Sequence record: PP003922.1
DNA: 10,183 nucleotides
Strand: one strand, 5' to 3'
DNA from: Pseudomonas phage vB_Pae_U10
The translations under genes were made by a program, and so were the position numbers. Shown one piece after another: positions 3,286 through 3,852 of this stretch. The notes beneath the pieces were generated by a model. That model saw only the letters and a program-made list of their open reading frames with translations. It made no database searches and was not told the origin of the DNA. Numbering within the stretch: the first letter of the stretch is position 1; each line of letters starts with the position of its first letter.

Positions 3286-3852
3286 ATGAAGAATATTCAA
3301 GAGCGCCGTTCGGCGCTGACGGGATCGGCTTGCCCGGAAAAAGCCAACGACACTTCGCACCAGGACCAGAGCGCGAGCCCTGACGGCTACGTCGCGCCGC
3401 AGCGCACTTGTCGTCATGTCGGTGACCGCCAGTGCATCCAGGTCGGCGACTTCGGCACAGCGGTAGCCGGTGAGCGTGGTCATGCCATGGTGGGCGAAAG
3501 CGGATTCGCCCTGGCCGGTGATCGTGGTACGGCGCGGGCGGGGGACTTCGGCACCGCTATGGTCGGCGAGTTCGGCAAGGCGATTGCCGGTGACTGCGGT
3601 ATGGCGTCCGCGTGCGATGGCGGCAGTGCTCGGGCCGGTTTCCGGGGCATTGCCAGTGCCGGTTTTCAGGGGGCGGTCGCAGCGGGTGAGTTCGGCGAAC
3701 TGCGCCTCACCTACTGGGACAGTCCGAGCAAGCGCTACCGCACGGCGGTCGGCTATATCGGCGAGGATGGTTTGCTGGCGGACACCTTCTACACCCTCGA
3801 CAGTAACCACCAGTTTGTCCCGGCCAGGCCGGACCAGGAGGTGGCCCGATGA
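3286..3852 (+). CDS. Octapeptide-repeat protein, predicted beta-solenoid, acidic (188 aa)
   Basis: It contains about 11 consecutive 8-residue repeats of consensus G-[D/E]-x-G-x-A-x-[A/V]: GDFGTAVA GERGHAMV GESGFALA GDRGTARA GDFGTAMV GEFGKAIA GDCGMASA CDGGSARA GFRGIASA GFQGAVAA GEFGELRL. The start is the only in-frame ATG after the upstream gene ends. The stop overlaps the primase start as ATGA at 3849-3852. Confidence 0.7.
   Translation: MKNIQERRSALTGSACPEKANDTSHQDQSASPDGYVAPQRTCRHVGDRQCIQVGDFGTAVAGERGHAMVGESGFALAGDRGTARAGDFGTAMVGEFGKAIAGDCGMASACDGGSARAGFRGIASAGFQGAVAAGEFGELRLTYWDSPSKRYRTAVGYIGEDGLLADTFYTLDSNHQFVPARPDQEVAR

What the first reader, a model, noticed from the sequence alone, without database searches (positions are those of the whole stretch)
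3286..3852. Acidic 8-residue-repeat beta-solenoid-like protein translationally coupled to the primase: possible DNA mimic, anti-restriction or helper-interference factor
About eleven perfect-register octapeptide repeats G-[D/E]-x-G-x-A-x-A would place an Asp or Glu at the same position of every turn of a beta-helix. That gives a continuous acidic stripe, as in pentapeptide-repeat DNA mimics (Qnr/MfpA) and phage DNA-mimic anti-restriction proteins. The repeat length and G/A/T pattern also recall the 8-residue units of bacterial ice-nucleation proteins (AGYGSTxT). The gene's stop overlaps the primase start (ATGA), so it is co-expressed with the replication genes. The first replication-coupled gene of a satellite or phage is where anti-defence and takeover functions usually sit. 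I do not recognise this protein family.
Basis: partly seen in the sequence, partly recalled or inferred. Interest (0 to 1): 0.7.

Follow-up and report, generated by a model that had tools for sequence, protein, structure and literature searches.

The report
Mini ice-nucleation-like solenoid in satellite
The gene is real and encodes a small capped beta-solenoid that is a truncated relative of bacterial ice-nucleation proteins, from a large uncharacterised phage and satellite family; it sits in a variable slot ahead of the satellite's primase, and it does not look like a DNA mimic.

Summary
Window 3286-3852 (+) encodes a 188-aa protein with 12 in-register octapeptide units (residues 45-140; lag-8 autocorrelation z=11). 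AlphaFold2 models it as a regular beta-solenoid with a C-terminal cap (pLDDT >94 over residues 40-180). Its stop overlaps the Toprim primase start (ATGA).

The protein belongs to phrog_18079 (E=3e-41), the family of Bordetella phage BPP-1 Bbp36, which carries "variable region 2". The ice-nucleation resemblance is true homology. The cap matches an authentic Pseudomonas syringae INP cap (hhalign 97.9%, E=5e-13). Longer family members also share the INP N-terminal domain (99.5%, E=3e-22). The window protein is a short form that lacks that domain.

DNA mimicry is not supported. Net charge is only -4 (pI 5.5). The Asp/Glu residues fall in the turn segments, so they should lie on the two narrow edges (inferred by analogy with INP models). 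One flat face is inferred hydrophobic and the other basic. Family repeat pI ranges from 4 to 9.4.

Related satellites carry unrelated small ORFs in the same slot, and a 180-nt patch of the gene is mosaic. Function is unknown. My best guess is a fast-evolving, self-associating or protein-binding accessory factor.

The parts
3286..3852 (+). CDS of the 188-aa INP-like capped beta-solenoid protein (short form of the Bbp36/phrog_18079 family)
   Evidence: phrog_18079 E=3.4e-41. P0001 is 99% identical and the same length. dN/dS is 0.25. AF2 mean pLDDT is 83.7.
3273..3277 (+). Weak Shine-Dalgarno-like GGGAA, 8 nt before the ATG
   Evidence: Read from the sequence. Inference only.
3286..3417 (+). N-terminal 44 residues. 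They are predicted disordered and carry a peptide (M-x-x-[FI]-Q-E-R-x-x-A-L-T-G-S-A-C-[PL]-[EK]-K) conserved only in satellite-borne short and long forms.
   Evidence: pLDDT is <50 for residues 1-30 and for residues 1-36 of long form P0014. Conservation is visible in alignment A1.
3418..3705 (+). Twelve octapeptide units (residues 45-140). These are inferred to form six 16-residue solenoid coils, with strands at unit positions 6-7-8-1 and turns at G-[D/E]-x-G.
   Evidence: Register and autocorrelation z=11. DSSP strands every 8 residues. Geometry of the homologous INP coil from PMC9418140.
3706..3825 (+). C-terminal cap domain (residues 141-180: LTYWD..KRYRT..GYIGEDGL..Y..FV), homologous to the cap of bacterial ice-nucleation proteins
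   Evidence: hhalign of cap profile A2 against the P. syringae INP cap: 97.9%, E=5.2e-13. BLASTP of the whole protein against the INP tail: E=3e-9. pLDDT 96-98. Y169 is invariant.
3586..3765 (+). Mosaic, hyper-divergent patch (residues ~101-160: units 8-12 plus the first cap strands)
   Evidence: The window is 97.7% identical to L002 over 4.1 kb, but only 63-75% in this patch. Flanking genes are 98-99.6% identical. The same patch is the least conserved in L200.
3849..3852 (+). ATGA: the repeat gene's stop overlaps the primase start
   Evidence: The same overlap occurs in L002-L005, L006-L008, L132 and L200, but not in L131 or L202.
3849..4859 (+). Toprim-domain primase, downstream partner in the operon
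   Evidence: PF13362 E=3.8e-12.
4856..6643 (+). DUF927 helicase. Its start overlaps the primase stop.
   Evidence: PF06048 E=1.7e-68. The called start in orthologs is at the matching position.
2158..2360 (+). P4-type immunity RNA region upstream of the operon: a1/b1 targets (2158-2210), isrK-like (2171-2257) and C4/CI antisense RNA (2273-2360)
   Evidence: Rfam RF03163 56 bits, RF01394 51.3 bits, RF01695 80.5 bits, all above gathering score.

Best explanation
Shown: the gene encodes a soluble 188-aa protein with three parts.
- A disordered 44-residue N-terminal peptide.
- A solenoid of 12 octapeptide units, inferred to be six coils of 16 residues.
- A C-terminal cap.

It is a short, N-domain-less member of the large phage and satellite family typified by Bbp36 of Bordetella phage BPP-1 (phrog_18079). 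That family is homologous to bacterial ice-nucleation proteins in the N-terminal domain, the octapeptide solenoid and the cap. The window protein corresponds to the non-water-organising, charged 'R-coil plus cap' end of an INP.

The gene lies in the left (early, replication) operon of a P4-like satellite of Pseudomonas aeruginosa. It is downstream of a C4/CI-type immunity RNA and is overlapped by the primase-helicase genes.

Inferred mechanism: it works as a rigid protein-protein interaction module, not as a nucleic-acid mimic. In INPs this part of the molecule drives multimerisation. Here one flat face is inferred hydrophobic, so it should be buried by self-association or by a partner. The opposite face is inferred basic.

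Three observations suggest an accessory factor engaged in conflict with a helper phage or host protein, rather than a core replication component:
- The slot it occupies is variable among related satellites.
- The distal coils are mosaic between near-identical elements.
- Repeat number varies in phage relatives.

I put the identity and fold at about 0.9. I put the self-associating or protein-binding accessory-factor mechanism at about 0.3-0.35.
For: Family and homology:
- phrog_18079 E=3.4e-41.
- tblastn finds BPP-1 Bbp36/VR2 at 54% identity, plus phages EL, Mica and D14O.
- An exhaustive profile search finds 3486 cluster representatives.
- An authentic INP gene (L082; PF00818 E=0, 48 repeat hits) matches the window protein (BLASTP E=3e-9).
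- It also matches the cap profile (97.9%, E=5e-13) and the family N-domain profile (99.5%, E=2.7e-22).

Fold:
- Short form.
- Long form P0014 has a disordered N-terminus, an alpha/beta domain, a solenoid and a cap.

Faces: using the inward/outward geometry of PMC9418140.

Role of R-coils and cap in INP multimerisation: PMC10727499.

Operon context:
- C4 RNA.
- No promoter or terminator consensus between the HTH gene and this gene.
- The position directly upstream of the primase, overlapping or near it, is kept in several satellite lineages.

Accessory nature:
- Satellites with 63% and 48% identical primases carry unrelated 136-aa and 95-aa ORFs in the slot.
- Satellite AH14b has a 75-aa ORF there (PMC4936722).
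- Long and short forms swap between closely related satellites.
- There is a mosaic patch.
- VR2 has 9-20 repeats and bbp36 is dispensable (PMC2884959).
- One 163-kb viral contig carries four or more paralogs.
Against: - No experiment or annotated homolog gives a function.
- Self-association is extrapolated from INPs, whose fibre model is itself partly hypothetical.
- Face composition and the 16-residue coil were inferred from sequence, DSSP and the INP model, not measured on coordinates.
- The conserved overlap with the primase could instead mean a replication role.
- High dS in the variable patch indicates recombination, which does not by itself prove conflict-driven selection.
- Family genes in phages often lie near DNA methylases. 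That would equally fit an anti-restriction role.
Confidence: 0.5

Rival explanations
1. DNA-mimic anti-restriction or anti-defence protein. In this reading, ladders of Asp/Glu along the solenoid imitate a phosphate backbone and titrate a DNA-binding defence enzyme, as Ocr, ArdA or Qnr/MfpA do.
For: - D/E is at unit position 3 in 10 of 12 units, above the 95th percentile of the family.
- The gene is expressed early with replication genes.
- Family genes in phages sit next to DNA methylases (Dam in L010, PF00145 in L134, Bpm near bbp36).
- The slot is a variable accessory position.
Against: - Net charge is only -4 and pI is 5.5.
- The acids fall in the turn segments, so by analogy with INP models they should lie on two opposite narrow edges. 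One ladder is paired with Arg. PMC9418140 notes that D or N at this turn position can serve a structural role.
- The flat faces are inferred hydrophobic and basic.
- Family repeat pI ranges from 4 to 9.4.
Confidence: 0.1
2. Core replication accessory of the satellite, for example a primase-helicase loader, an origin-binding helper or a primase chaperone, made stoichiometrically through translational coupling.
For: ATGA overlaps link this gene, the primase and the helicase. The same order is kept in several satellite lineages with proteins 46-84% identical. In one phage contig the gene overlaps a 585-aa ORF upstream of a family A DNA polymerase.
Against: - Satellites with clearly homologous primase-helicase pairs lack it and have unrelated ORFs in the slot (L139, L140; AH14b).
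- Coupling is lost in L131 (224-nt gap) and L202 (an intervening 76-aa ORF).
- In most phages the gene is not next to a primase.
- bbp36 is not essential for BPP-1-group phage growth (PMC2884959).
Confidence: 0.12
3. Envelope-associated or ice-nucleating protein like the INPs themselves, for example for surface display, superinfection exclusion or water ordering.
For: Homology to INPs in solenoid and cap. Long family members share the INP N-terminal domain, which is implicated in membrane anchoring (PMC12978214).
Against: - The window protein lacks that N-domain and has no signal peptide or hydrophobic segment.
- It has about six coils, against roughly 30 to over 70 water-organising coils in INPs.
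- The TxT and SLT water-organising motifs are absent from its faces.
- Pfam PF00818 does not match it.
Confidence: 0.03
4. Not a gene: a chance ORF or shadow frame in G+C-rich DNA, with the true gene on the opposite strand (3070-3900, 276 aa).
For: A long antisense ORF overlaps it.
Against: - Thousands of homologs exist.
- There is a strong PHROG hit.
- dN/dS is 0.25.
- The AF2 fold is very confident.
- Gene callers annotate this frame in all orthologous loci.
Confidence: 0.01

Closest known systems
Bbp36 of Bordetella phages BPP-1/BMP-1/BIP-1 (carries 'variable region 2', VR2); PHROG 18079
   Same: Same family: 54% identity over residues 46-178 and phrog_18079 E=3e-41. It has octapeptide (24-bp) units followed by the same cap. 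It is an early-region gene, non-essential, and varies between near-isogenic phages (PMC2884959).
   Different: Bbp36 is 309 aa with an N-terminal domain. Its repeats are near-identical at DNA level (a 19-bp repeat plus a 5-bp spacer, 9-20 copies), so they can change by slippage. The window gene has 12 diverged units with no DNA tandem and lacks the N-domain. It varies by a mosaic patch instead. It lies in a satellite ahead of a primase.
Bacterial ice-nucleation proteins (InaZ, PbINP; Pfam PF00818), especially the C-terminal R-coils plus the 41-residue cap
   Same: Homologous cap (hhalign 97.9%, E=5e-13). The D and Y equivalent to the conserved cap residues D1208 and Y1230 are kept. The 8-residue half-coil A-G-x-x-G/S-x-x-x is shared, as is the solenoid strand/turn pattern. 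Like R-coils, its faces lack TxT/SLT motifs and carry charged residues. Long family members share the N-terminal domain too.
   Different: It is 188 aa against about 1200 aa, with about 6 coils against roughly 40-80 (WO-coils plus 10-12 R-coils). It has no N-domain, no water-organising motifs and no PF00818 hit. It is encoded by a satellite early operon rather than a chromosomal surface-protein gene. Ice nucleation is not expected.
Pentapeptide-repeat DNA mimics (Qnr, MfpA) and Ocr/ArdA anti-restriction proteins
   Same: It is a repeat-built rod-like protein with regularly spaced acidic residues, and it is expressed early by a mobile element.
   Different: The period is 8 rather than 5. The solenoid is flat and two-sheeted rather than a quadrilateral helix. 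Charge is near neutral. There is no sequence or fold match.
E. coli K-12 YdhT (b1669), an uncharacterised protein of the ydhYVWXUT operon
   Same: It shares the C-terminal cap domain (hhalign 96.8%, E=2.8e-10; NCBIfam PRK09946 weak hit), preceded by short Gly-containing repeats.
   Different: YdhT has 9-residue repeats, is chromosomal and lies in an oxidoreductase operon. Its function is also unknown.
Small genes between the cI RNA and the alpha primase gene in the left operon of satellite P4 (for example epsilon, the anti-repressor of helper P2). This comparison rests on my own knowledge of P4.
   Same: Same position in a P4-type left operon controlled by a C4/CI RNA, directly upstream of the replication gene.
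   Different: No sequence similarity was tested or expected. The helper-derepression activity is only a positional analogy.

Membership tests
Bbp36 / phrog_18079 family (octapeptide solenoid plus cap) | Significant match to the family profile | tested here: met
   phrog_18079 E=3.4e-41, 142 bits. tblastn to bbp36 E=7e-31.
Bbp36 / phrog_18079 family (octapeptide solenoid plus cap) | Tandem 8-residue A-G-x-x-G-T/x-A-x units followed by the GYIGE-containing C-terminal domain | tested here: met
   12 units. G156-Y157-I158-G159-E160 and Y169 are (nearly) invariant in alignment A1.
Bbp36 / phrog_18079 family (octapeptide solenoid plus cap) | N-terminal DUF7666-like globular domain, present in most members | tested here: not met
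   It is absent from the window protein, which has only 44 disordered residues. Other short forms (P0005-P0007, P0010-P0012) also lack it, so this is a subfamily trait and does not exclude membership.
Bbp36 / phrog_18079 family (octapeptide solenoid plus cap) | DNA-level identical 24-bp repeats (VR2-type slippage array) | tested here: not met
   TRF finds no tandem array, and the codons of the units are diverged.
Bacterial ice-nucleation proteins (PF00818) | Match to the Pfam Ice_nucleation repeat model | tested here: not met
   No PF00818 hit at E<=0.01. An authentic INP scores 1096 bits.
Bacterial ice-nucleation proteins (PF00818) | Conserved C-terminal cap domain | tested here: met
   hhalign 97.9%, E=5.2e-13. 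The BLASTP alignment runs through the cap.
Bacterial ice-nucleation proteins (PF00818) | Conserved globular N-terminal domain | tested here: not met
   It is missing in the window protein. It is present in long paralogs (99.5%, E=2.7e-22).
Bacterial ice-nucleation proteins (PF00818) | Tens of 16-residue coils bearing TxT and SxL[T/I] water-organising motifs | tested here: not met
   About six coils. Face residues are mixed: E,R,I,S,M,S,T,M,F,L,T,V on one sheet and A,A,S,R,K,I,T,R,H,M,C,Q on the other.
Bacterial ice-nucleation proteins (PF00818) | Ice-nucleation activity and outer-membrane location | not testable with these tools
   This needs a droplet-freezing assay and cell fractionation.
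Pentapeptide-repeat DNA mimics (Qnr/MfpA; PF00805) | 5-residue repeat forming a four-sided right-handed beta-helix | tested here: not met
Ocr / ArdA anti-restriction DNA mimics | Sequence or fold similarity and a very acidic surface (pI about 4) | tested here: not met
   No hits. pI is 5.5 and net charge -4.
Pfam DUF4774 (PF15999) | Score above the gathering threshold (25 bits) | tested here: inconclusive
   21.5 bits, E=1.9e-4, below the cut-off. Homologs pass. The repeat-only matches to giant arthropod proteins suggest repeat-composition similarity only.

The most novel reading that the evidence does not exclude
The family may be the phage-borne stock from which bacterial ice-nucleation proteins arose by repeat expansion. 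Its ordinary job in phages and satellites may be intracellular conflict. In that reading the short satellite form is a self-assembling or decoy solenoid: either a new class of anti-defence or helper-interference protein, or a dominant-negative partner of the long forms carried by co-resident prophages. The target specificity would be encoded in the mosaic distal coils.
Probability: 0.15. Interest if true: 0.75.

Novelty: new variant of a known kind. Interest (0 to 1): 0.55.

Why it matters
At 50% clustering the family has about 3,500 cluster representatives. Those examined come from phage and satellite early regions in proteobacterial hosts, with further hits in an acidobacterial genome and a human-gut metagenome contig, yet no member has a known function.

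All three modules of bacterial ice-nucleation proteins (N-domain, octapeptide solenoid, cap) are shared with this mobile-element family. This gives a concrete evolutionary origin for INPs. I found no discussion of it in the searchable literature; the only trace was a BLAST-based annotation in phage Mica.

For satellite biology, the gene marks a variable accessory slot at the head of the replication operon of P4-like Pseudomonas satellites. It has a mosaic cassette, which is the kind of signature seen in conflict genes. The protein is small and confidently modelled, so it is an easy target for pull-downs, oligomerisation tests and anti-defence screens.

Tried and rejected
- Tandem Repeats Finder on the DNA gave nothing, because the repeats are diverged.
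- Pfam gave only a sub-threshold DUF4774 hit. NCBIfam gave only a weak YdhT hit. PADLOC gave no defence-system hit.
- A word-indexed homology search with the cap profile returned only short fragments, many at contig ends, and no INPs.
- The exhaustive profile search listed no INP in its top 150. Two giant hits were arthropod repeat proteins.
- The INP link was therefore tested another way. I fished an authentic INP gene with a degenerate WDGKRYR pattern; most of the roughly 120 matches were chance.
- The lipoprotein reading of the conserved 'ALTGSAC' peptide was rejected by inspection. It has no hydrophobic h-region, and charged residues precede it.
- A DGR or template-repeat explanation of the variable patch was rejected. 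There is no second copy in the window and no reverse-transcriptase hit among the ORFs scanned.
- Guilt-by-association clustering of neighbours in 66 viral loci was dominated by one clade of BPP-1-like prophages and by shadow ORFs. It gave no general partner.
- Literature searches for DUF4774, DUF7666, INP plus phage, and P4-like Pseudomonas satellites found nothing on function. The Liu 2004 BPP-1 paper is not held.

Full report
**Observation.** The ORF at 3286-3852 (+) encodes 188 aa. Residues 45-140 form 12 octapeptide units in perfect register, with consensus [A/V]-G-[D/E]-x-G-x-A-x. Identity autocorrelation peaks only at lags 8, 16, 24 and 32 (lag 8: 41 matches against 9.8 expected, z=11.2). 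At DNA level the units are diverged, and Tandem Repeats Finder reports nothing. The stop codon overlaps the ATG of a Toprim primase (ATGA at 3849-3852). The primase stop overlaps the ATG of a DUF927 helicase in the same way.

The gene is real:
- A 99%-identical, same-length protein is annotated in P. aeruginosa.
- dN/dS against an 84% ortholog is 0.25.
- AlphaFold2, run with a 38-sequence alignment, gives pLDDT >94 for residues 40-180.

**Fold.** The model has a 4-residue strand every 8 residues, followed by two longer hairpin strands and two short strands that form a cap. Residues 1-30 are disordered. No solved structure is close:
- PDB sequence search: none.
- Foldseek against the PDB: nothing with E<1.
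- Among predicted viral structures, the best match is a phage EL protein (E=1.8e-13). Xanthomonas phages Xp10 and CP1 and DUF7666 proteins follow.

**Family.** The protein hits PHROG 18079, of unknown function, at E=3.4e-41. tblastn against phage genomes finds several relatives:
- Bbp36 of Bordetella phages BPP-1, BIP-1 and BMP-1, over the annotated 'variable region 2'.
- EL-like jumbo phages.
- A D3-like Pseudomonas phage.
- Burkholderia phage Mica gp48. Its annotators called it 'ice nucleation protein' from a BLAST hit to Swiss-Prot Q47879.

According to PMC2884959, citing Liu et al. 2004, VR2 is a 24-bp element repeated 9-20 times depending on the isolate. bbp36 is not essential and its role is unknown.

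An exhaustive HMMER search with the family profile finds 3486 cluster representatives at E<=1e-3 and 841 at 1e-30, mostly 200-400 aa. Most members carry an N-terminal DUF7666-type domain. The window protein and a few relatives of 188-209 aa do not.

**Homology to ice-nucleation proteins.** I fished an authentic INP gene from Pseudomonas syringae PDD-32b-74 with a degenerate pattern for WDGKRYR. It is L082:530-4306, 1259 aa, and Pfam PF00818 matches it at E=0 with 48 repeat hits. Three comparisons followed:
- The window protein aligns to the last 250 residues of this INP with BLASTP E=3e-9. The alignment runs through the final coils and the cap.
- A profile of the non-repetitive cap alone matches the INP cap with hhalign probability 97.9%, E=5.2e-13. 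The D and Y equivalent to cap residues D1208 and Y1230 of PbINP are kept; those residues were mutated, together with F1204, in PMC10727499.
- A profile of the N-terminal domain of long family members matches the INP N-terminal domain at 99.5%, E=2.7e-22, 42% identity.

AF2 of a long satellite form (P0014, 323 aa) shows a disordered N-terminal peptide, an alpha/beta domain, a solenoid and a cap. This is the architecture described for INPs. The window protein corresponds to the R-coil-plus-cap end of an INP.

It is not itself an INP:
- PF00818 does not match it.
- It has about six coils rather than dozens.
- It has no N-domain.
- It lacks the TxT and SLT water-organising motifs.

**DNA-mimic idea.** Strands comprise unit positions 6-7-8-1, and turns comprise G2-[D/E]3-x4-G5. 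In the homologous INP coil of 16 residues (two units), positions 6 and 8 point outward on the two flat sheets, and position 3 sits at the tight turn. PMC9418140 notes that D or N can serve that turn role. Applying that geometry by analogy gives the following:
- The acids would form two ladders on opposite narrow edges, not one face.
- On one edge they are followed by Arg (D-R, E-R, D-R) and on the other mostly by Phe.
- One inferred flat face is relatively hydrophobic (T,V,F,L,T,M,M,S,I,S; mean Kyte-Doolittle +0.67, net charge 0).
- The other inferred flat face is basic/polar (H,M,T,R,K,I,S,R; -0.72, +3).

Net charge of the whole protein is -4 and pI is 5.5. Across 195 family members, D/E fills position 3 in a median of 45% of units. 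Repeat-region pI runs from 4.05 to 9.45 (5th-95th percentile). No pentapeptide, Ocr or ArdA similarity exists. I therefore rate DNA mimicry as unlikely but not excluded. The window subfamily is unusually rich in position-3 acids, and phage homologs often lie beside DNA methylases.

**Genomic setting.** The window is a P4-like satellite of P. aeruginosa. Its parts are:
- An integrase and AlpA-like HTH proteins.
- A C4/CI antisense RNA with its a1/b1 targets (RF01695 80.5 bits).
- The operon: tandem-HTH gene, this gene, primase, helicase.
- An Ogr/Delta activator and a P2-family major capsid gene.

No promoter or terminator consensus separates the gene from the upstream HTH gene.

The position directly upstream of the primase is kept in several satellite lineages whose proteins are 46-84% identical to the query. 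These include long forms of 318-323 aa. The overlap is lost in L131 and L202.

The gene is not a constant partner of this primase:
- Satellites with 63% and 48% identical primases have unrelated 136-aa and 95-aa ORFs in the slot, and no family member within 4 kb.
- The Pseudomonas satellite AH14b has a 75-aa ORF there.

In phages the gene lies in early, recombination or replication regions, never among virion genes. That excludes a tail-fibre role.

**Variation.** The window and L002 are 97.7% identical over 4.1 kb, and the flanking genes are 98-99.6% identical. Nucleotides 3586-3765 (units 8-12 and the first cap strands) are only 63-75% identical. dS is high there (about 0.42-0.47 for the repeat and cap segments, against 0.012 in the primase). 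That points to import of a divergent cassette by recombination. The same patch is the least conserved in a third allele (L200).

Three further observations fit a fast-evolving accessory gene:
- VR2 repeat-number variation.
- Multiple paralogs in single large viral contigs.
- Frequent assembly breaks inside family genes.

**Mechanism (inferred).** In INPs, the R-coils and cap are the part required for multimerisation into fibres (PMC10727499). The window protein is essentially that module. It has an inferred exposed hydrophobic sheet that should be buried by self-association or by a partner, and a satellite-specific disordered N-terminal peptide that could dock elsewhere.

I therefore propose a self-associating or protein-binding scaffold that acts as an accessory factor in satellite-helper-host conflict. 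I put this at roughly 0.3-0.35. The rivals are:
- Replication accessory: 0.12.
- DNA mimic: 0.10.
- Envelope or ice function: 0.03.
- The rest is unknown.

**Novelty.** The family is catalogued (PHROG 18079, DUF7666, DUF4774, Bbp36/VR2) but uncharacterised. The window gene is an N-domain-less satellite variant. The three-module homology between this mobile-element family and INPs was not discussed in any paper I could search. It suggests that INPs are a repeat-expanded offshoot of the family. INPs are confined to a few gammaproteobacterial genera plus a fungal transfer (PMC12978214), whereas the family is far larger and occurs in much more diverse hosts.

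Noticed in passing
window 2158-2360 (+): C4/CI-type antisense RNA (RF01695, 80.5 bits) with its a1/b1 target element (RF03163) and an isrK-like match (RF01394). This is a P4/P1-type RNA immunity system upstream of the replication operon. 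The long 'ORFs' listed across 1871-2614 are probably not coding.
   Followed up: partly
window 7856-9408 and 9431-10183: The satellite carries its own P2-family major capsid gene (PF05125, E=4e-112) beside an Ogr/Delta activator, followed by a conserved 250-aa protein of unknown function. P4 itself has no capsid gene (from my own knowledge). The 250-aa protein could be a scaffold or size-determination factor. A related satellite (L006) lacks the capsid gene and has a DUF4238 gene instead.
   Followed up: partly
L082:530-4306 (Pseudomonas syringae INP) versus family alignments A2 and A3: All three INP modules (N-terminal domain, octapeptide solenoid, C-terminal cap) are homologous to the phage and satellite family. 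hhalign gives 99.5% for the N-domain and 97.9% for the cap. The Pfam DUF7666 model itself does not hit the INP N-terminus. This suggests that INPs arose from the mobile-element family by repeat expansion.
   Followed up: partly
L203:6748-7560 (-) (E. coli K-12 ydhT, b1669): The last 44 residues of YdhT match the cap profile (hhalign 96.8%, E=2.8e-10). They are preceded by about 13 nine-residue repeats. The cap is therefore shared with a chromosomal protein of an oxidoreductase operon that has a different repeat period.
   Followed up: partly
window 3586-3765 versus L002 and L200: A 180-nt mosaic patch is 63-75% identical inside a 4.1-kb region that is 97.7% identical overall. It covers the distal coils and the start of the cap. 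No template copy is present in the window.
   Followed up: partly
L139:3598-4008 and L140:2828-3115: In satellites with homologous primase-helicase genes, the slot immediately upstream of the primase holds unrelated small ORFs of 136 aa and 95 aa. The slot behaves like a variable accessory position.
   Followed up: partly
L204/L138 and L210 (IMG genome 2617271009): The genome that carries this exact satellite also has a 41.7-kb prophage contig encoding a 317-aa long-form homolog (57% identical over residues 38-178). Whether the short and long forms interact is unknown.
   Followed up: no
L223, L232, L244, L257 (IMGVR_UViG_3300035193_000067, 163 kb): One large viral contig carries at least four family paralogs, and another contig (3300044477_000030) carries three. 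Many family hits begin at contig ends, which suggests that repeat-rich alleles break assemblies.
   Followed up: no
window 7803-7845: A perfect 16-nt inverted repeat (AACAACAAAGCCCCGC / GCGGGGCTTTGTTGTT, 11-nt loop) lies just 3' of the Ogr/Delta gene on the minus strand. It is probably a bidirectional terminator.
   Followed up: no
P0129 and P0153: Giant arthropod proteins (crayfish, 3954 aa; ladybird 'mucin-5AC-like', 3382 aa) score highly against the family profile, with 11-14 repeat stretches and no cap. This probably explains the DUF4774 cross-hits. It may be convergent repeat composition.
   Followed up: partly
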